A stretch of DNA of 64,000 bases from a virus. Taxonomy: Duplodnaviria; Caudoviricetes. A program made the translations under genes and the position numbers. The notes below the pieces were generated by a model that was given only the letters and a program-made list of their open reading frames with translations, did no database searches and was not told the DNA's origin. Shown in pieces: positions 5,589 to 35,528 of the stretch. Each line of letters starts with the position of its first letter. Positions within the stretch are counted from its first letter, which is position 1. The stretch is taken from the IMG/VR virus record IMGVR_UViG_3300027804_000038, positions 229,851 through 293,850 of that record; one strand, written 5' to 3'.

Positions 5589-6011
5589 ATGGAAAAAGAA
5601 TTTGTCACATATGAGATTGGTTTAGAACTCAAGAATCTTGGGTTTAACGAACGTTGTTATGGATGTTTCAGTCATTTGGACAACAAGGAGTTATGGACAA
5701 GTAGGGTATACACCAACGGAGTATCTGAAAATATTGCGGCACCAATCTTCTCACAGGTATTCGGATGGTTTGAAGATAATTATTCATATTTTGTGGATAT
5801 TAGAACTGACACCACACCAAATGAGATTTTGGGATTTGACTATACGATTAAGAGTTGGAAGTTTCCACCAATGTATTTTGATTTCTTCAATGATAAGAGA
5901 GAAGGAAACATTGAGGTCATCAAGAAGATGATTAAAATGGCGAATAAAGAAAAACAAAAGGAGGCTCTTATTGATTTAATTAATTTGGATAATGACGATA
6001 AAGATAAATAA
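5589..6011 (+). CDS. Hypothetical phage protein
   Basis: 140-aa ORF after a TAnnTTTG promoter. Confidence 0.6.
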   Translation: MEKEFVTYEIGLELKNLGFNERCYGCFSHLDNKELWTSRVYTNGVSENIAAPIFSQVFGWFEDNYSYFVDIRTDTTPNEILGFDYTIKSWKFPPMYFDFFNDKREGNIEVIKKMIKMANKEKQKEALIDLINLDNDDKDK

Positions 6012-8114: not shown

Positions 8115-8171
8115 CAAACTTCAATAGGAGTACCTGTTCTAGGGATGTCGCAATCCCCCTATTGATTAAAA

Positions 8172-8257
8172 ACCACTGTTGTAAGTTACGTTGGAACGGA
8201 CGAACAGGAGGGTGACCGATACGTAAGGTCTTTGGGGTTCAAATCCCACCAGTGGTC
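8172..8257 (+). ncRNA. tRNA-like element (acceptor stem and T arm only)
   Basis: ACCACTG/CAGTGGT, TGGG-GTTCAAAT-CCCA; centre non-canonical. Confidence 0.5.
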
Positions 8258-8358
8258 AAAACACATAAACTCAAGTACCCATACCGATGACTGTGGGATA
8301 AGTAAGATACAATTTCGTACTGCGGGAAGTAGAATGCTTGAGAGTGTGTTTATTATAT

Positions 8359-8436
8359 GGTGTCTATAGTGTTAGCGGTCTAGCACGAAGGGTTGTGGTT
8401 CCTTTAGCACCAGTTCGAATCTGGTTAGACACACCA
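8359..8436 (+). tRNA. tRNA-His(GTG), G-1, CCA encoded
   Basis: AAGGG-TTGTGGT-TCCTT. Confidence 0.88.
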
Positions 8437-10397: not shown

Positions 10398-10784
10398 ATG
10401 AAGAAAGAATTAAGGGAGAGGGTATTCCACAAATGTAATGGACATTGTGCTTATTGTGGAAAGGAGATAACCTACAAGGAAACGCAGGTTGACCACATTG
10501 AACCCAAATGGCATACCTTCACCGAACAGGAAGCGGATAAACATAAGATTATTAAAGGTTCAGATGACTTTAAAAATCTAAATCCATCTTGCCCAAGGTG
10601 TAATAAATGGAAATCAACTTATTCACTGGAACATTTCCGTAAGGTGGTTCGAACATCACTTGTCAGATTGGAAAGGGATACTCCAAATTATAGGTTGGCA
10701 AAAGATTATGGATTGATTGTTGAAAATGATTCACCGATTGTTTTTTACTTTGAGAAAAATAATATATCTTTGTCTTATGAATGA
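10398..10784 (+). CDS. HNH endonuclease
   Basis: CAYCG, QVDHIEP, NLNPSCPRCNKWKS. Confidence 0.9.
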   Translation: MKKELRERVFHKCNGHCAYCGKEITYKETQVDHIEPKWHTFTEQEADKHKIIKGSDDFKNLNPSCPRCNKWKSTYSLEHFRKVVRTSLVRLERDTPNYRLAKDYGLIVENDSPIVFYFEKNNISLSYE

Positions 10785-11322
10785 TAATGATAAAATTAAC
10801 TGGGTATTAGACCAACACAAAAATACAAACCATTTTTACGACACATACTTACCGTATGAGTTCCATTTGAGAATGGTTGTTAATGTTGCTGACAAATTTA
10901 TGAATCTGTTGGTACCTAAGAACAAATTACATCCTGGTTATCCTGATGTAATTAATATTAGACGAGCGGCTTGGGGACACGACTTGATTGAGGACACTCG
11001 TGTATCTTACAACGATGTTAAAGAACGATTAGGTATAACCGCAGCTGACATCATCTATGCTCTTACCAATGAGAAAGGTAAGAACCGTAAGGAAAGAGCT
11101 AATGCTAATTACTATATGGGTATCAGAAATACTCACGGAGCAGTGTTTGTTAAGTTGTGTGACCGTATTGCTAATGTTCAATACTCAAAAATGACAGGTA
11201 GTCGTATGTTTGAGATGTATAAAAAAGAAAACGAAAATTTTGAACAAATGCTTGGCCGTCACACTGATTACAAACATTTAGAAGAAATGTTTAGTTATTT
11301 AGAAAACCTTTTTAATGATTAA
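10777..11322 (+). CDS. HD-domain hydrolase, small-alarmone-hydrolase/Mesh1-like
   Basis: PYEFHL, WGHDLIEDT, VKLCDRIANV. Confidence 0.75.
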   Translation: MNDNDKINWVLDQHKNTNHFYDTYLPYEFHLRMVVNVADKFMNLLVPKNKLHPGYPDVINIRRAAWGHDLIEDTRVSYNDVKERLGITAADIIYALTNEKGKNRKERANANYYMGIRNTHGAVFVKLCDRIANVQYSKMTGSRMFEMYKKENENFEQMLGRHTDYKHLEEMFSYLENLFND

Positions 11323-13343: not shown

Positions 13344-14969
13344 ATGGCTAAATTCAGAAACACAGGATTAAAAGAGAAGTTGGACTCTACAAAACCAAAG
13401 AAAAATCTCGTCGCAAAAATGTCGGTTCCTAAACCAAACACAACTAACCTACAAGGTTATGAAGCTTATGATATCGATAATTGGCTACGACTAATCTCAC
13501 TGTTAAACACATCAAAACTTCAACCACAATTTTATCGTTCAGAGAATGATACAATGCGTGAACTGAAGAAATTAATTGATGTATGTGGTAAAGAAGACCC
13601 ATACTTCGCGGCACAGTGTATTGTATACTCTCGTTGTGTCGGAGAAGGTATGCGTTCAATCAACCACTTGGCGGCCGTTTACTTGGCACCATATATGAGT
13701 GGTAAAGAATGGTCAAAACGTTTCTTCTCCGTATGGGATAAGAAAAACCAAAAAGGTGGAACGATTTTCCGTCCTGATGATATGGCAGAAATCGTTGCGG
13801 CATATACTGCGATGAATGATAAGAGTATCACAAACGCAATGAAAAAAGGTTTCCGTGAAGCACTTGAAAAAATGGATGCTTATAGTCTGTTAAAGTACAA
13901 ATCGGCAGTACTTGACATGATTAATTTGGTACATCCAGACCCAAATGAATCAAAAGCTCTTGTTGATTACATGGATAAAAAAGTACCAGCGTTCGAAGCA
14001 ATCATTAAAGGGTATAATGTATCTGCGGATACTTGGGAAGTTGCACAATCTGACGCAGGTCAAATTGTTGCACAAGCGGTTCGTGAAGGTAAACTCTCAG
14101 AATCAGAAGCTAAAGAAGTATTAACTGAACAAAAGTCAGAAAACTGGAAAGGGTTATTGACTGAAGGTAAGTTGGGTATTTTGGCCGCTATTCGAAATAT
14201 GAGAAACATTCTTACCAACAAACCTGAGGCGAAAACAATTGACACTCTGTGTGATTTGGTTTCAAATCCTGAATTGATTAAAAAAGGTAAGATTATGCCA
14301 TACCAACTTGACTTGGCAAATGAAGTAATGAACTCTGAGTTTAGTGATACTAACTCAAGAAAGTTGTCAAAAGCTTTATTGACAGGTTATGAGTTGGCGG
14401 TTCCGAACCTTAAAGAACTACTTACAGGTAACAACCTTGTAATCATTGATATGTCAGGTTCTATGGACACTGAAGTACTTGACCCTAACAGAAAAACAAA
14501 TTACAAGAGTACTTGTATGGATAAAGCAAGTCTAATCGGAATGACAATTGCTAAGGCGACAAATGCAGATGTTATCCGTTTCGGTTCAAGTGCTGAGTAT
14601 ATTACTTATAACCCTAACCAAGATGTGTTCAGTTTGGCAAAATCTATCCGTAAAGGAATGGGTGGTACAAACTTGTCACAAGCTTGGGCGAAGGCTCAAA
14701 GTTCAGGTAGAAAATACGACCGTGTTTTTATCTTGTCTGACAATGAGTGTAACATGGGTTCAACATACCGTAATTATACAAGTTATGTTGAAAAGGTTGG
14801 TGACCCATACGTATATTCAATTGACCTAGCATCTTACGGAACTACCGCAATTGCAGGACCTAAAGTAAGATACTACTACGGTTATGGATACTCAATGTTT
14901 GATGATATCGCTAAGAGTGAGTTCAACCCAAACTATCATATTGAAAAAATCCGTAAGATTGAAATTTAA
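13344..14969 (+). CDS. rsr: Ro60/Rsr ribonucleoprotein (TROVE plus vWA)
   Basis: 541 aa; TROVE-type N-terminus (LNTSKLQPQFY, G-M-R-S), vWA IDMSGSM, GGTNLS, VFILSDNE, YSIDLASYG. Confidence 0.85.
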   Translation: MAKFRNTGLKEKLDSTKPKKNLVAKMSVPKPNTTNLQGYEAYDIDNWLRLISLLNTSKLQPQFYRSENDTMRELKKLIDVCGKEDPYFAAQCIVYSRCVGEGMRSINHLAAVYLAPYMSGKEWSKRFFSVWDKKNQKGGTIFRPDDMAEIVAAYTAMNDKSITNAMKKGFREALEKMDAYSLLKYKSAVLDMINLVHPDPNESKALVDYMDKKVPAFEAIIKGYNVSADTWEVAQSDAGQIVAQAVREGKLSESEAKEVLTEQKSENWKGLLTEGKLGILAAIRNMRNILTNKPEAKTIDTLCDLVSNPELIKKGKIMPYQLDLANEVMNSEFSDTNSRKLSKALLTGYELAVPNLKELLTGNNLVIIDMSGSMDTEVLDPNRKTNYKSTCMDKASLIGMTIAKATNADVIRFGSSAEYITYNPNQDVFSLAKSIRKGMGGTNLSQAWAKAQSSGRKYDRVFILSDNECNMGSTYRNYTSYVEKVGDPYVYSIDLASYGTTAIAGPKVRYYYGYGYSMFDDIAKSEFNPNYHIEKIRKIEI

Positions 14970-16617: not shown

Positions 16618-16714
16618 TAAAAATAAGATTTTACTTGACAAGAGTATATTTATAACTTACCTTTGTCAAACAATTCAGTAAAGACTGAAACGTTCTTTGA
16701 AAAATTAAAAAAAT

Positions 16715-16860: not shown

Positions 16861-16994
16861 TTGATTGATAGTAATAGATAAGGTTACTTCGTAAAATAGC
16901 TCAATTGGATGAGCATTTGTATCAGGAACAAAAGGATACGGGTTCAACTCCCGTTTTTACAACCAAAAAAACCTTCCTAACTTTCTTCAATCAA
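16861..16994 (+). ncRNA. Carrier RNA 2 enclosing an unpermuted tRNA(CAG) with CCA
   Basis: TTGATTGA/TCAATCAA and AAGGTT/AACCTT stems; cloverleaf 16890-16965. Confidence 0.82.
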
Positions 16995-17001
16995 ACTTAT
17001 T

Positions 17002-17133
17002 ATCAGATAGTGAAGAGACAGTTACTTCAAATTTTTCTGGAACAAAAAAGGCTCGGGTTCGAATCCCGACTCCTCTTCGGGGGATGTGGTGTAGCGGTAG
17101 CACTAGATAACACTGTTTCTATTTTCTTCTGAT
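17002..17133 (+). ncRNA. Carrier RNA 3 enclosing a permuted tRNA(GGA) with UUCG-capped acceptor stem (YrlA-like topology)
   Basis: ATCAGA/TCTGAT and AGAGACAG/CTGTTTCT stems; order is anticodon arm, T arm, closed acceptor, D arm. Confidence 0.82.
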
Positions 17134-17138
17134 TAAAC

Positions 17139-17222
17139 GCCGAGGTGATGAAAAGGTAGACATGACAGACTTAAAATCTGTTGGGCAGTTCGCCCGTGCG
17201 GGTTCGAATCCCGCCCTCGGTA
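17139..17222 (+). tRNA. tRNA-Leu(TAA)
   Basis: ACAGA-CTTAAAA-TCTGT, long V arm. Confidence 0.92.
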
Positions 17223-17231
17223 CTAAAACAA

Positions 17232-17306
17232 GCCTCCATAGCTCAGCAGGTTTAGAGCGACTGATTTGTAATCAGTAGGTCGTTGGTTCGATTCCGACTG
17301 GAGGCT
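17232..17306 (+). tRNA. tRNA-Thr(TGT)
   Basis: ACTGA-TTTGTAA-TCAGT. Confidence 0.92.
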
Positions 17307-17317
17307 CTAATATATAT

Positions 17318-17392
17318 GCTCGGTTCGTCTAGACTGGTCTAGGACACTACCCTTTCACGGTATAAACACGGGTTCGAATCCCGTACCGAGTA
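17318..17392 (+). tRNA. tRNA-Glu(TTC)
   Basis: TCGTCTAGACTGGTCTAGGAC D arm, loop CTTTCAC. Confidence 0.9.
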
Positions 17393-17395
17393 CTA

Positions 17396-17481
17396 AATGA
17401 AGTAGTAAGGATAAGAGTTACTTCGCAAATTACTTTTAATGATTCAAGCAAAAACAAACTCTTTCCAACGTTCTCTTCATT
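17396..17481 (+). ncRNA. Carrier RNA 4 enclosing an isolated Lys(TTT) anticodon stem-loop
   Basis: AATGAAG/CTTCATT and AAGAGTT/AACTCTT stems; AATTA-CTTTTAA-TGATT. Confidence 0.78.
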
Positions 17482-17486
17482 AATTT

Positions 17487-17571
17487 GGGAGTGTCACCAT
17501 AGCGGCGATTGGCCCGCACTGTAAATGCGGTACCTAAGGTTCCATCGTAGGTTCGAGTCCTACCGCTCCCA
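17487..17571 (+). tRNA. tRNA-Tyr(GTA)
   Basis: CCGCA-CTGTAAA-TGCGG, long V arm. Confidence 0.9.
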
Positions 17572-17572
17572 C

Positions 17573-17787
17573 AAAACACGACGAAAATAGGATTAAAGCT
17601 CCTGTTATCACGACACCAAGATACGGTACGAGTGCGCGCTTAATGACTGTTGCGGTGAGGAGGGAATAAGTAGGGTTTAGCTAACCCAATTACGAAAACC
17701 TCATAACAAAAATAAAGGACCACCAATCTCAGGTGGTGTAATAAAATGTTTGGGTCGGATGTGGATAATGCTTCCACGCAGTGTTTT
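17573..17787 (+). ncRNA. Candidate structured ncRNA at end of RNA operon
   Basis: Terminal stem AAAACAC/GTGTTTT encloses several hairpins; GC-rich, no long ORF. Confidence 0.45.
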
Positions 17788-17862
17788 AAATTTAAAAAAA
17801 AAACAAACTTTAAAAAGGGCCCTTCCTGAAATATTGGCTTGTTGGGCCCGAGTTTGTTAAAT

Positions 17863-17890
17863 CCCCCACCTTTTGAGTGGGGTTTTTTAT
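17863..17890 (+). terminator. Intrinsic terminator
   Basis: CCCCAC..GTGGGG plus T run. Confidence 0.7.
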
Positions 17891-23958: not shown

Positions 23959-24033
23959 GAAGAAGTAGCTCAGACGGTAGAGCATAGGGTTAGAAATCCC
24001 TTGTGCCGCGAGGTTCGATTCCCGCCTTCTTCA
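23959..24033 (+). tRNA. Atypical tRNA with 8-nt anticodon loop (TTAGAAAT)
   Basis: GAAGAAG/CTTCTTC, canonical D arm, bulged T stem. Confidence 0.65.
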
Positions 24034-28526: not shown

Positions 28527-29258
28527 ATGTTCAAGTTCTATGAGGTCGGAGGTAAAATAAGAGACGAAATCCTTGGTTTAAAATCAAAGGATGTTGATTA
28601 CGTTGCGGTACCAAGTGACGAGTTAATTAATGATATTAGCTCACCTCATTCTATGTTTGGAATACTCGAAGGATTTTTAAAAGAAGAAGGTTTTGAAATA
28701 TTTTTAATTACACCTGATTGTTTTACGATTAGAGCCAAGTTTCCCCAAGGGCATACATACGAAGGTGTTGCTGATTTTGTAATGGCGAGAAAGGAATTGG
28801 GATATATTCCTGGCACAAGAACTCCATTGGTTAAACCAGGAACTCTATACGATGATTTGGAAAGACGTGACTTTACATTAAACGCATTGGCTAAAGATTC
28901 AGATGGAAACATTATTGATTTCTTTGGTGGTGAGGATGATTTGAAACATGGTATGTTAAGAACACCACTAGATTGTAAAGTAACTTTTGATGATGACCCT
29001 TTACGTATTTTGAGAGCAATTAGGTTTTCAATTACTAAGGGATTTACTATGTCTAGAAAGATAGTTGAAGAAATATACATCTACGACTACGACAATAAAA
29101 TGTCTGTAGTATCTACAGAAAGAATCAGAGAAGAGCTCCTCAAGTGTTTTAAACATGACACGATTAAAACATTAAACACTTTGGAGGAGTTTTACAGATT
29201 AAGAGATTATATCTTTAAAAACAATATTTTGTGGTTAAAACCAACTTTAGAAAAATGA
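28527..29258 (+). CDS. cca: tRNA nucleotidyltransferase (CCA-adding / poly(A) polymerase family)
   Basis: VGGKIRDEILG..KDVDY, DLERRDFTLNALA, DDPLRILRAIRF. Confidence 0.9.
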   Translation: MFKFYEVGGKIRDEILGLKSKDVDYVAVPSDELINDISSPHSMFGILEGFLKEEGFEIFLITPDCFTIRAKFPQGHTYEGVADFVMARKELGYIPGTRTPLVKPGTLYDDLERRDFTLNALAKDSDGNIIDFFGGEDDLKHGMLRTPLDCKVTFDDDPLRILRAIRFSITKGFTMSRKIVEEIYIYDYDNKMSVVSTERIREELLKCFKHDTIKTLNTLEEFYRLRDYIFKNNILWLKPTLEK

Positions 29259-34373: not shown

Positions 34374-35528
34374 ATGAAAATGATGGAAAATAATAATTCA
34401 GTGTGCTATGTAGCACGTATTGACGAAATTAAAGAAATACCTGGCGCTGATAACATTGTACAAGGTGTTATTGGAGGATGGAATTGTATTATTCAAAAAG
34501 AACAATACCAAGCTGGCGACTTAGTAGTTGTTGCAACTACAGATGCGGTTATTCCTTTAGATTTATCTGATGCGATGAACGTGACTAATTATTTACGTAA
34601 AGGTCAACGTGTACGTACTGTTAAGTTGAGAGGTGTTTATTCTGAATGTTTAATCATTCCTTTAAAATACGCTCGTGAAGTAGCTAAACATGCTAACACA
34701 AAATGGGATGAAGGTGAAGACATGATGGATGTATTAAAGATATTTAAATACGAACCACCTGCAGTACAAATACAATTATCTTCAGGTAAAAAGGTAAGAT
34801 ATCACCAAAACCCGAACTTCCATGTTTACTATAAGTTCCCAAACTTGAAGAATGTTGCAGGAATGTTTACCGAAGAAGATACTGTTGAAATTACTCGTAA
34901 AATTCACGGTACAAATGCTCGTTATGGGATTGTTAAGAAAACTAAATTAACATTATGGGATAAGTTTAAGAAGTTTATTGGATTGGCGGATAAATGGATT
35001 GAGTATGAGTATGTGTATGGTTCTCATAATGTTGAAAAGGGGTCCGACTCACAAGGGTTTTATTCAACTGATGTGTGGAGAGAGGTTGCTGACAAATACC
35101 AAATCAAAAAGAAGTTATGGGATTATGTTAAAAACAACGCTATGGAACCAGAAATTGGAGATGGGATTACAATATACGGTGAAATCTATGGTGCGGGTAT
35201 CCAAAAGAACTATGAATACGGTTTAAATGATATTAAATTTGTGGGGTTCGATGTTAAAGAAAACGGAGAGTATTTAAGTCCTATTAATGCTAAACTACAG
35301 ATTAAATATCTTTTAGAATTGCCATATGTCGAAATCTTACATTTCGGAAAATGGTCTCAAGAGGTACAAGACAAATATACATTTAATAACTTTATTGAAG
35401 GTACAAAAGTACCACATGAAGGTATTGTGATTAAATATGAGTCGGGTGGACGTAATAAAGTGGCAAAAGTAATCAACCCAGATTATTTAATTTATGCTGA
35501 AAAAAAGGATGTTGGGGACTCTCACTAA
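34374..35528 (+). CDS. RNA ligase, DRB0094-like with N-terminal OB domain
   Basis: EIPGADNI, motif I KIHGTN, YGEIYG, FDV, EGIVIK, KVIN. Confidence 0.88.
   Translation: MKMMENNNSVCYVARIDEIKEIPGADNIVQGVIGGWNCIIQKEQYQAGDLVVVATTDAVIPLDLSDAMNVTNYLRKGQRVRTVKLRGVYSECLIIPLKYAREVAKHANTKWDEGEDMMDVLKIFKYEPPAVQIQLSSGKKVRYHQNPNFHVYYKFPNLKNVAGMFTEEDTVEITRKIHGTNARYGIVKKTKLTLWDKFKKFIGLADKWIEYEYVYGSHNVEKGSDSQGFYSTDVWREVADKYQIKKKLWDYVKNNAMEPEIGDGITIYGEIYGAGIQKNYEYGLNDIKFVGFDVKENGEYLSPINAKLQIKYLLELPYVEILHFGKWSQEVQDKYTFNNFIEGTKVPHEGIVIKYESGGRNKVAKVINPDYLIYAEKKDVGDSH

What the first reader, a model, noticed from the sequence alone, without database searches (positions are those of the whole stretch)
16861..16994. 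Unpermuted class-I tRNA with CAG (Leu) anticodon embedded in a carrier
Seen: full cloverleaf 16890-16965 with encoded CCA, loop ATCAGGA, short variable loop (bacterial tRNA-Leu has a long one), A-T-rich acceptor stem and a C1-A72 mismatch whose C comes from the carrier ACTTC. Inference: RNase P/Z could release it from the carrier. The body and anticodon do not match, so it may be uncharged, mischarged or a decoy.
Basis: partly seen in the sequence, partly recalled or inferred. Interest (0 to 1): 0.6.

Follow-up and report, generated by a model that had tools for sequence, protein, structure and literature searches.

The report
Ro60-docked tRNA look-alike in phage
The "leucine tRNA in a carrier" is real, but it is most likely a small non-coding Y RNA of a giant phage: a stem that probably docks the phage's own Ro60 protein and holds out a complete tRNA-shaped module, rather than a tRNA that reads leucine codons.

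Summary
Bases 16890-16965 form a canonical short-variable-loop cloverleaf (Rfam tRNA 59.9 bits) with anticodon CAG, a C1/A72 mismatch and an encoded CCA. It sits inside a leader/trailer stem spanning 16861-16994.

The "carrier" is one of four like scaffolds that lie 1.7-2.5 kb downstream of a phage Ro60/TROVE gene, on the same strand. The same scaffold, with a natural-order tRNA module, occurs in at least 112 phage contigs:
- 91 of them show Ro60 in the piece fetched.
- All 135 units near a Ro60 gene are on its strand, at a median distance of 233 nt.

Cloverleaf, tertiary pairs and closing stem all covary. The anticodon is not conserved: there are 24 different triplets, and the nearest relatives carry TCA, TTG, TAG and GTG. 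U33 and a purine at 37 are kept. CCA is present in only 8 of 68 distinct sequences. CTG is 1.2% of this phage's leucine codons.

Best reading: a Y RNA in natural tRNA order, as in D. radiodurans Yrn1 rather than permuted YrlA, that presents a tRNA mimic. Release as a working tRNA is not excluded, but I think it unlikely. It matches no Rfam 15 family.

This scan has already found the same design on other phage DNA and on the neighbouring units of this genome.

The parts
13344..14969 (+). Phage Ro60/Rsr homologue (541 aa; TROVE ring plus vWA domain), the presumed protein partner
   Evidence: Pfam TROVE 25.9 bits (cut-off 23), vWA_Ro60 and VWA_2. Best PDB match is Thermus phage phiLo Ro60 9KOP/9L5Y, E 9e-11 over residues 23-508; it also matches Xenopus and human Ro60. 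It is the only TROVE match in the 293,850-bp genome.
16635..16665 (+). Candidate promoter of the RNA operon (TTGACA, 17 nt, then TACCTTTG)
   Evidence: Read from the sequence. It was not called by the sigma-70 scan, so this is inference only.
16861..16994 (+). The whole unit (u2): scaffold plus tRNA-shaped module, a Y-RNA-like gene
   Evidence: Folds. Covariation across 12 homologues.
16861..16868 (+). Outer closing stem, 5' strand (pairs with 16987-16994)
   Evidence: All 8 pairs show changes on both sides among homologues; 87.5% of cells are paired. A perfect 6-bp leader/trailer complement is found in 21 of 23 relatives tested.
16869..16874 (+). Conserved unpaired TAGTAA (family consensus TAG[T/C]NA); candidate Ro60 contact
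   Evidence: Conserved in all four window units and in relatives. Its role is inferred.
16875..16885 (+). Middle (TAG) and inner (AAGGTT) stems, 5' strands; they pair with 16977-16979 and 16970-16975
   Evidence: Covariation is partial (56-67% of cells paired) because the alignment is imperfect there.
16883..16890 (+). Invariant GTTACTTC junction motif; its last C is tRNA position 1
16890..16962 (+). Natural-order tRNA-shaped module (class I, 5-nt variable loop)
   Evidence: Acceptor, D, anticodon and T stems are 96-100% paired with compensatory changes. Tertiary pairs U8-A14, G18-U55, G19-C56 and T54-A58 are kept, and the 15-48 pair covaries A-U/G-C.
16921..16927 (+). Anticodon loop ATCAGGA (CAG, U33, G37)
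   Evidence: Among relatives the triplet is hypervariable, while U33 (60/65) and purine 37 (62/65) are kept.
16963..16965 (+). Encoded CCA, part of the A/C-rich linker 16963-16969
   Evidence: CCA is kept only in the closest subclade (W, L097, L297, L318, L049); 8 of 68 sequences in the family have it.
16970..16994 (+). 3' strand of the scaffold: AACCTT, CTA, conserved ACTTTCT (family TTTCTC), TCAATCAA
16715..16860 (+). Neighbouring unit u1: same scaffold; module in the order T arm, closed acceptor, D arm, anticodon arm (CAT)
17002..17133 (+). Neighbouring unit u3: same scaffold; module in the order anticodon-like arm, T arm, TTCG-closed acceptor, D arm
   Evidence: Weak Rfam YrlA hit at 17048-17104 (15.9 bits).
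17397..17481 (+). Neighbouring unit u4: same scaffold with a short insert
17139..17572 (+). Ordinary tRNA genes in the same cluster, without a scaffold: Leu(TAA), Thr, Glu, Tyr
17864..17890 (+). Intrinsic terminator-like hairpin plus T run that closes the RNA cluster

Best explanation
Bases 16861-16994 encode a Y-RNA-type small RNA of a 294-kb phage.

The 5' and 3' ends pair into a three-part stem. Its conserved unpaired motifs (TAGTAA, GTTACTTC, an A-rich linker, TTTCT) most likely dock the phage's own Ro60 protein. That stem holds out a complete tRNA-shaped module in natural 5'-to-3' order, attached through its acceptor end.

The RNA is probably made from a polycistronic transcript together with three sister scaffolds and four real tRNAs. 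The tRNA module acts as a mimic: a very stable L-shaped fold with an authentic-looking anticodon stem-loop that tRNA-binding proteins can recognise. It does not act as a decoder of CUG.

Shown:
- the fold and its covariation;
- the physical linkage of this scaffold to Ro60 genes;
- the non-conservation of the anticodon and of the CCA.

Inferred:
- Ro60 binding;
- co-transcription;
- that the module stays on the scaffold, or is at most nicked by RNase P as M. smegmatis YrlA is;
- what its protein partner is.
For: (1) A Ro60/TROVE+vWA gene lies 1.9 kb upstream on the same strand.

(2) A scan of IMG/VR with the RNA motif alone returned 119 stretches. 18 of them carry a Ro60 homologue of 25-72% identity in the few kb fetched.

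(3) After a second scan, 112 phage loci hold a natural-order unit:
- 91 have Ro60 in the fetched piece.
- 135 of 135 units near a Ro60 gene are on its strand.
- The median distance is 233 nt and the maximum 3.6 kb.

(4) The same scaffold carries quite different inserts: permuted tRNA-like modules, short hairpins and a ~200-nt insert. So the scaffold is the constant part.

(5) Covariation across 12 homologues: 87% of cells are paired against at most 55% when partners are slid, and 28 of 34 pairs show double changes. This includes all 8 pairs of the closing stem.

(6) Orthologues keep the body but not the anticodon. There are 24 triplets among 68 distinct sequences. The nearest relatives of this unit carry TCA, an 8-nt TTAG loop, TTG, TAG and GTG. 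Against the closest relative (L097), all 3 anticodon bases differ but only 5 of the other 73 do.

(7) CCA is present in 8 of 68 sequences. Acceptor stems range from 7 bp down to about 4-5 bp.

(8) CTG accounts for 71 of 5,703 Leu codons (1.2%) in 208 long ORFs. The phage already has Leu(TAG) and Leu(TAA) tRNAs.

(9) Published precedent:
- Bacterial and phage Y RNAs lie within 4 kb of Ro60 on the same strand and contain tRNA-like domains.
- D. radiodurans Yrn1 has the natural orientation, with an anticodon-like arm.
- Yrn2 is co-transcribed with a tRNA (PMC4201824).
- A phage Ro60 binds phage Y-like RNAs and host PNPase (PMC12135203).
Against: - No binding, expression or processing data exist for this RNA.
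- The published Ro60-contact motif GNCGAAN0-1G is absent from this unit, which reads TTCGTA. Half of the relatives read TTCGAA.
- No Rfam family, YrlA included, matches this unit.
- This unit and its closest subclade keep C1/A72, A73 and CCA, a U at -1 and a seven-position acceptor. That is what a releasable tRNA would need.
- U33 and purine 37 are strongly kept, so the anticodon loop is not simply decaying.
Confidence: 0.7

Rival explanations
1. Anticodon-loop display. This is still a Ro60-docked Y RNA, but its working part is the anticodon stem-loop. The loop serves as a decoy, bait or competitive inhibitor for a host enzyme that reads anticodon loops, such as an anticodon nuclease of a defence system or a toxin. 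Different phages would display different loops.
For: U33 is kept in 60 of 65 loops and purine 37 in 62 of 65 while the triplet changes.

Many loops copy natural ones: CTTTTAA (Lys UUU), CTGTAAA (Tyr GUA), CTTTCAA (Glu), CTTCTAA (Arg). In that large clade the acceptor is only about 4-5 bp with no CCA, so the anticodon end is what is preserved.

NAG+G37 loops recur in this unit's own subclade: CAG here, TAG in L274 and L313, TTAG in L354.

Lys and Tyr tRNAs are known targets of PrrC, PARIS and retron-Eco7, and phages counter these with their own tRNAs (PMC11555353, PMC11464382, PMC10264068).

The phage also encodes a CCA-adding-type nucleotidyltransferase and an Rnl2-type RNA ligase.
Against: - No nuclease or host is known for this phage.
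- Some relatives have loops that no natural tRNA has: A34 in ATC and ATG, C37, no U33, and 8-nt loops.
- Counts are inflated by many near-identical phages from one metagenome.
- A stoichiometric decoy would need very high expression.
Confidence: 0.2
2. Releasable cargo. RNase P cuts before C1 and 3' trimming stops at the encoded CCA. This frees a 76-nt class-I tRNA(CAG) that is charged, by LeuRS or by another synthetase, and reads CUG.
For: - A canonical tRNA core, a seven-position acceptor, U at -1, A73 and an encoded CCA are kept in the closest subclade.
- An internal loop separates the acceptor from the scaffold stem.
- M. smegmatis YrlA is cut by RNase P and receives CCA in vivo (PMC4201824).
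- From general knowledge, not tested here: E. coli LeuRS relies on A73 and core tertiary features rather than on the anticodon or the long arm, and this RNA has A73 and an A15-U48 pair.
Against: - The anticodon differs in every close orthologue, including the stop-reading TCA and an 8-nt loop. True tRNA orthologues keep their anticodon.
- CCA is present in only 8 of 68 sequences, and acceptor length varies.
- CTG is the rarest Leu codon at 0.97 per 1000, and tRNA-Leu(TAG) is present.
- From general knowledge: a C1/A72 mismatch is the bacterial initiator feature that weakens EF-Tu binding. The three G-C pairs and the CAU anticodon that an initiator needs are absent.
- The real tRNAs of the same cluster have no scaffold.
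Confidence: 0.08
3. The scaffold has nothing to do with Ro60. It would be a processing or punctuation stem (for example an RNase III site) or a mobile cassette around tRNA-derived pieces, or a decaying tRNA pseudogene.
For: - Leader/trailer stems flank stable RNAs in many operons.
- Ro60 binding is untested.
- Two ORFs separate Ro60 from the units in this phage.
Against: - Same-strand linkage to Ro60 holds across Ro60 proteins as low as 25-38% identical.
- Unpaired motifs are conserved, which a simple double-strand cleavage site would not need.
- Purifying selection and covariation on all stems argue against a pseudogene.
Confidence: 0.04

Closest known systems
D. radiodurans Yrn1 (Y RNA with a tRNA-like domain in natural orientation; Chen et al. 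2014, PMC4201824)
   Same: Both have a long stem made by the 5' and 3' ends, next to Ro60. The tRNA-like part runs D side, anticodon-like arm, T arm, so the stem takes the place of the acceptor end. Both are encoded in a cluster with tRNA genes.
   Different: Yrn1 has only a partial D arm, a 6-nt 'anticodon' loop and no variable region. The phage RNA is a full cloverleaf that scores as a tRNA, with a 7-nt loop, U33, G37 and all core tertiary pairs, and here even a CCA. Sequence homology to Yrn1 was not tested.
YrlA Y RNAs of bacteria and mycobacteriophages (Rfam RF02553; Chen et al. 2014; structure in bioRxiv 10.1101/312249)
   Same: - Encoded within a few kb of Ro60 on the same strand.
- tRNA mimic with D and T arms and a covarying 15-48 pair.
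- Several Y RNAs per locus.
[quoted passage not shown]
   Different: - YrlA is permuted (V, T, closed acceptor, D) and lacks an anticodon loop and a free CCA end.
- This unit is unpermuted with a complete anticodon arm.
- RF02553 gives no match for this unit.
- The GNCGAA motif is not present in this unit.
Yrl1/Yrl2 of Thermus phage phiLo with phiRo60 (PMC12135203)
   Same: A phage-encoded Ro60, the best structural-database match of this phage's Ro60 (E 9e-11), with phage-encoded Y-like RNAs beside the gene. It forms complexes with host PNPase.
   Different: As described, Yrl1/Yrl2 are stem-bulge-stem RNAs with a CGAA motif. No tRNA cloverleaf is reported. They lie upstream of Ro60.
Phage-encoded tRNAs that counter tRNA-cleaving defences (T5 tRNA-Lys against PARIS, tRNA-Tyr against retron-Eco7, tRNA-Lys against PrrC; PMC11464382, PMC11555353, PMC10264068)
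   Same: Phage RNA with a tRNA shape and an anticodon loop that differs between phages. It is located in a phage tRNA cluster.
   Different: Those are free, charged, decoding tRNAs that replace the cleaved host species. This RNA is tied into a scaffold linked to Ro60, and its anticodon is not conserved among orthologues.
Bacterial tRNA-Leu (class II) and bacterial initiator tRNA
   Same: CAG anticodon with G37 and A73, as in tRNA-Leu. C1/A72 mismatch, as in initiator tRNA.
   Different: There is no long variable arm. There is no run of three G-C pairs in the anticodon stem and no CAU anticodon. Orthologues carry other anticodons.

Membership tests
Y RNA (Ro60 partner RNA, general) | Encoded close to a Ro60/TROVE gene, same strand | tested here: met
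   1.9 kb downstream of Ro60, on the + strand. In relatives, 135 of 135 units are on the same strand, median distance 233 nt.
Y RNA (Ro60 partner RNA, general) | Long stem formed by pairing of the 5' and 3' ends, with conserved internal loops or bulges | tested here: met
   Folds. The closing stem covaries in 8 of 8 pairs. Conserved unpaired TAGTRA, GTTACTTC and TTTCTC.
Y RNA (Ro60 partner RNA, general) | Bound by Ro60 | not testable with these tools
   Needs RIP or EMSA.
YrlA (Rfam RF02553) | Scores above the family's gathering threshold (69 bits) | tested here: not met
   No hit on this unit, even at E up to 10. Only a 15.9-bit hit on the neighbouring unit u3.
YrlA (Rfam RF02553) | Permuted order V, T arm, closed acceptor-like stem, D arm; no anticodon loop; no free CCA end | tested here: not met
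   The order here is acceptor, D, anticodon arm, variable loop, T, acceptor, CCA.
YrlA (Rfam RF02553) | GNCGAAN0-1G motif near the 5' end | tested here: not met
   This unit reads ACTTCGTAAAA. 34 of 68 relatives read TTCGAA, which has the CGAA core but no G two bases before it.
YrlA (Rfam RF02553) | tRNA-like D and T arms with tRNA tertiary pairs, including a covarying 15-48 pair | tested here: met
   15-48 is A-T in 4 and G-C in 7 of 16 sequences. G18-U55 holds in 16 of 16 and T54-A58 in 16 of 16.
Yrn1-type Y RNA (D. radiodurans) | tRNA-like part in natural orientation, with an anticodon-like arm between the D side and the T arm | tested here: met
   Topology, compared with the description in PMC4201824. 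Sequence relationship was not tested.
Bacterial elongator tRNA-Leu | Long (class II) variable arm | tested here: not met
   The variable loop is 5 nt, AGGAT. The phage's own Leu(TAA) tRNA at 17139-17223 has the long arm.
Bacterial elongator tRNA-Leu | Anticodon conserved among orthologues | tested here: not met
   24 different triplets in the family. The closest relatives carry TCA, TTAG, TTG, TAG and GTG.
Bacterial elongator tRNA-Leu | Watson-Crick 1-72 pair, A73, 3' CCA | tested here: inconclusive
   A73 and CCA are present, but 1-72 is C/A. CCA is present in only 8 of 68 relatives.
Bacterial elongator tRNA-Leu | Charged by LeuRS and used on the ribosome | not testable with these tools
   Needs aminoacylation and tRNA-seq assays.
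Bacterial initiator tRNA | C1/A72 mismatch, three consecutive G-C pairs in the anticodon stem, and a CAU anticodon | tested here: not met
   Only the mismatch is present. The anticodon stem is TTTGT/ACAAA and the anticodon is CAG.

The most novel reading that the evidence does not exclude
Phage Ro60 particles carry a swappable set of authentic anticodon stem-loops on a common handle, here a Leu(CAG)-type loop on a full tRNA body. They use these loops to trap, sense or divert host enzymes that attack or read specific tRNA anticodons. This would be a programmable RNA decoy system, in which the loop evolves quickly while the body and handle stay fixed. A rarer variant of this reading is that the natural-order units are cut out and used as non-standard tRNAs.
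Probability: 0.2. Interest if true: 0.8.

Novelty: new variant of a known kind. Interest (0 to 1): 0.5.

Why it matters
What the tRNA-like domain of bacterial Y RNAs does has been open since 2014. This phage family offers a natural experiment. One Ro60-linked handle carries tRNA modules in three topologies. The unpermuted form keeps a complete anticodon loop whose shape is conserved (U33, purine 37) while its triplet changes between phages. That points to the anticodon end as a functional surface and suggests simple tests, such as loop swaps and pull-downs.

It also matters for annotation. ARAGORN and the Rfam tRNA model call these units as ordinary tRNAs (Leu, His, SeC, Pro, Lys, Tyr and others). 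Phage tRNA inventories, suppressor-tRNA calls and codon-usage arguments will be contaminated by them.

Tried and rejected
- **Ordinary phage tRNA-Leu(CAG).** Rejected because orthologues change the anticodon, CTG is hardly used, there is no long arm, and 1-72 is C/A.
- **Initiator-like tRNA for CUG starts.** Rejected because the anticodon stem has no G-C triplet.
- **Body derived from a particular isotype.** BLAST against phage records gave only weak matches (E 5e-3 at best among annotated tRNAs) to Ala, Gln and Thr tRNAs. Among 514 tRNA calls, the nearest sequences are other scaffolded units whatever their anticodon, followed by generic Ile/Ala tRNAs. No isotype could be assigned. G3-U70 appears in three relatives (L119, L031, L027) but not here.
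- **RtcB repair-operon context, as in Salmonella.** There is no RtcB in the genome. T4 Rnl1 was searched, but the control genomes did not respond, so that result is uninformative.
- **Close phage relatives in GenBank phage records.** None were found; only generic tRNA matches.
- **Bacterial genomes.** Only 1 of 120 motif hits in GTDB representatives (L215) was a real unit beside Ro60. This sequence variant of the handle is therefore essentially phage-borne.
- **MFE folding alone.** It does not form the A-U-rich acceptor stem. I rely on covariation for that stem.
- **Resemblance of the handle to upper-stem sequences of human Y RNAs.** I recalled this only from memory. It was not tested and is not used.

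Full report
**What is there**

The window is the last 64 kb of a 293,850-bp IMG/VR virus record with 30% G+C, rated complete by CheckV. It holds about 25 tRNA genes.

At 16890-16965 ARAGORN calls tRNA-Leu(cag). The Rfam tRNA model scores 59.9 bits, with one non-standard pair at 1-72.

Reading the sequence gives:
- an acceptor of C1/A72, G2-C71 and five A-T pairs;
- a normal D arm with G18G19;
- anticodon stem TTTGT/ACAAA with loop ATCAGGA;
- a 5-nt variable loop;
- a TTCAACT T loop;
- A73 and an encoded CCA.

There is an 8-bp outer stem (16861-16868 with 16987-16994), a 3-bp stem and a 6-bp stem. These are separated by unpaired TAGTAA and ACTTTCT, and by the junction ACTTC and an A-rich linker.

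The combined model contains only canonical pairs and is 1.9 kcal/mol above the MFE. The MFE leaves the weak acceptor stem open.

**What the carrier is**

Four units on the + strand (about 16715, 16861, 17002 and 17397) share the same 5' motif (TAGTRA, 7-10 nt, GTTACTTC) and 3' motif (A-rich linker, then TTTCTC). Their closing stems differ in sequence but all pair.

On the same strand 1.9 kb upstream lies a 541-aa ORF with a TROVE domain and a Ro60-type vWA domain. Its best solved relative is the Ro60 of Thermus phage phiLo (E 9e-11, nearly full length), followed by Xenopus and human Ro60. It is the only TROVE gene in the genome.

Two IMG/VR contigs whose Ro60 is 72-79% identical have the same GTTACTTC units directly after the gene.

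I then searched IMG/VR with the RNA motif alone. Of the 119 stretches returned, many are chance hits in coding DNA. Still, 18 carry a Ro60 homologue (25-72% identical) in the few kb fetched.

A second scan aimed at natural-order units brought the total to 112 phage loci:
- 91 show Ro60 in the fetched piece.
- All 135 units near a Ro60 gene are on its strand.
- The median distance is 233 nt.

The numbers are therefore lower bounds and are not independent counts.

In GTDB representative genomes, only 1 of 120 motif hits was a real unit beside Ro60.

Location within 4 kb of Ro60 on the same strand is the criterion Chen et al. used to recognise bacterial and phage Y RNAs (PMC4201824). A phage Ro60 has been shown to bind phage-encoded Y-like RNAs and host PNPase (PMC12135203). 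The carrier is therefore best read as the Ro60-docking stem of a Y RNA. Binding itself is inferred.

**Is the fold selected?**

I aligned twelve homologues of this unit, all natural-order cloverleaves starting at the C of GTTACTTC. I counted pairs on a structure written from the window sequence:
- 87% of cells pair, against 41-55% when partners are slid by 1-3 columns.
- 28 of 34 pairs carry changes on both sides.
- No shuffle out of 500 reaches any of the five measures.
- The anticodon stem is 100% paired, with 5 of 5 pairs covarying.
- The T, D and inner acceptor stems are 96-98% paired.
- The 8-bp closing stem is 87.5% paired, with 8 of 8 pairs covarying.
- The two inner scaffold stems score lower (56-67%), partly because MAFFT misplaces gaps there.

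In a 16-sequence subclade the tRNA tertiary pairs are kept: U8-A14 in 15 of 16, G18-U55 in 16 of 16, G19-C56 in 15 of 16 and T54-A58 in 16 of 16. The 15-48 pair switches between A-U (4) and G-C (7). Chen et al. noted the same covariation for YrlA. This is a structurally constrained tRNA mimic, not a decaying gene.

**Is it a Leu decoder?**

The evidence says probably not.

(a) Among 68 distinct natural-order units there are 24 different "anticodons". The sequences most similar to this one are other scaffolded units regardless of anticodon. In order of similarity they carry TCA (L097), an 8-nt loop with TTAG (L354), TTG (L297), TAG (L274), GTG (L001) and TCA (L318). Against L097, all three anticodon bases differ while only 5 of the other 73 positions do. 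By my own hypergeometric estimate this has a probability of about 8e-4 if differences fell at random.

(b) CCA at the 3' end occurs in 8 of 68 sequences. It is kept in this unit's closest subclade (W, L097, L297, L318, L049), but elsewhere the same position reads ACA or TCA within a conserved A/C-rich linker.

(c) Acceptor stems vary from 7 bp down to about 4-5 bp. In the large Lys/Tyr-loop clade there is no usable acceptor end.

(d) CTG is the rarest Leu codon of the phage: 71 of 5,703 Leu codons, or 0.97 per thousand, in 208 ORFs of at least 150 aa. Leu(TAG) and a normal long-arm Leu(TAA) tRNA are present.

(e) From general knowledge, a C1/A72 mismatch is the bacterial initiator feature that disfavours EF-Tu. 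The other initiator features are absent here.

Points in favour of release remain:
- U at -1, A73 and CCA;
- an internal loop between the acceptor and the scaffold;
- the precedent that M. smegmatis YrlA is cut by RNase P and CCA-tailed in vivo.

In natural topology, such cuts would free the module altogether.

**What the anticodon loop tells**

The loop is not decaying. U33 is present in 60 of 65 parsed loops and a purine at 37 in 62 of 65. Many loops are exact copies of natural ones: CTTTTAA, CTGTAAA, CTTTCAA, CTTCTAA.

In this unit's subclade, NAG followed by G37 recurs: CAG, TAG twice, and TTAG. So the shape of the anticodon end is under selection while its identity turns over.

That fits a module meant to be recognised by a protein that reads anticodon loops. 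Phage tRNAs are known to counter anticodon-directed defences against Lys and Tyr tRNAs. The phage also encodes a CCA-adding-type nucleotidyltransferase (window 28539-28961) and an Rnl2-type RNA ligase (window 34881-35474), but no RtcB.

This decoy or display reading is attractive but untested. Some relatives have loops that no real tRNA has.

**Comparison with what is known**

The closest architecture is D. radiodurans Yrn1. Chen et al. describe its T and D elements as lying in the opposite orientation to YrlA, with an anticodon-like arm between them. The phage unit is a much more complete version of this.

It is not a member of Rfam YrlA:
- no score on this unit;
- different order of arms;
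- no GNCGAA motif here, although 34 of 68 relatives read TTCGAA at the junction.

No Rfam 15 family other than tRNA matches it.

In this phage the same handle carries two different permutations (u1, u3), a short insert (u4) and this unpermuted form. Sister phages add further variants.

Notes from this scan independently reached the Y RNA reading for u1, u3 and u4 of this genome. They also report similar Ro60-linked arrays on other phage DNA. I treat those as agreement, not as evidence.

**Verdict**

- This is a new variant of a known kind: a Y RNA with a complete, unpermuted tRNA module.
- The mechanism beyond "Ro60-docked tRNA mimic" is open.
- ARAGORN and the Rfam tRNA model call these units as tRNAs, which is a practical annotation trap.

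Noticed in passing
window 23959-24033 (+): A tRNA-like gene found by Rfam (52 bits) but not by ARAGORN. Its anticodon region reads AGGG TTAGAAAT CCCT, which is either an 8-nt loop or a 7-nt loop closed by G-T. Its identity is unclear.
   Followed up: no
window 8160-8260 (+): A tRNA-like element with acceptor strands ACCACTG/CAGTGGT and a good T arm, but a long irregular interior. No tool called it. It lies between tRNA-Leu(TAG) and a tRNA-His that only Rfam finds (8360-8433).
   Followed up: no
window 17573-17860 (+): About 290 nt of non-coding sequence with several G+C-rich hairpins, between tRNA-Tyr and the terminator at 17864-17882. Possibly another structured RNA of the same transcript.
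   Followed up: no
window 28539-28961 and 34881-35474 (+): A CCA-adding-type nucleotidyltransferase head domain (PF01743, 58.5 bits) and an Rnl2-type RNA ligase domain (PF09414, 55.7 bits). The phage has tRNA maturation and repair enzymes but no RtcB.
   Followed up: partly
window 10398-11322 (+): A small HNH endonuclease-like ORF (10398-10784) overlaps a 201-aa ORF with a weak RelA/SpoT-type match (10717-11322), inside the tRNA-rich region.
   Followed up: no
L354 (unit at 5827, +), L293 and L335: Relatives of this unit have 8-nt anticodon loops; ARAGORN reports four-base anticodons ttag and ggta. L097 and L318 carry TCA, which would read UGA, and are reported as tRNA-SeC.
   Followed up: partly
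L119, L031, L027 (natural-order units): In units with a full 7-bp acceptor after the invariant C, position 3-70 is G-T. This is the alanine identity pair. It is not present in the window's unit.
   Followed up: no
genome G000:C1 49741-50133 (-), outside the window: ARAGORN reports a tmRNA with tag peptide GNVINKLQTIGLIRTEEVSVA. This is an unusual tag and was not verified.
   Followed up: no
L001 8066-8320 (+): The same Ro60-linked handle encloses a ~200-nt insert that is not tRNA-like, so the scaffold also carries other cargo.
   Followed up: no
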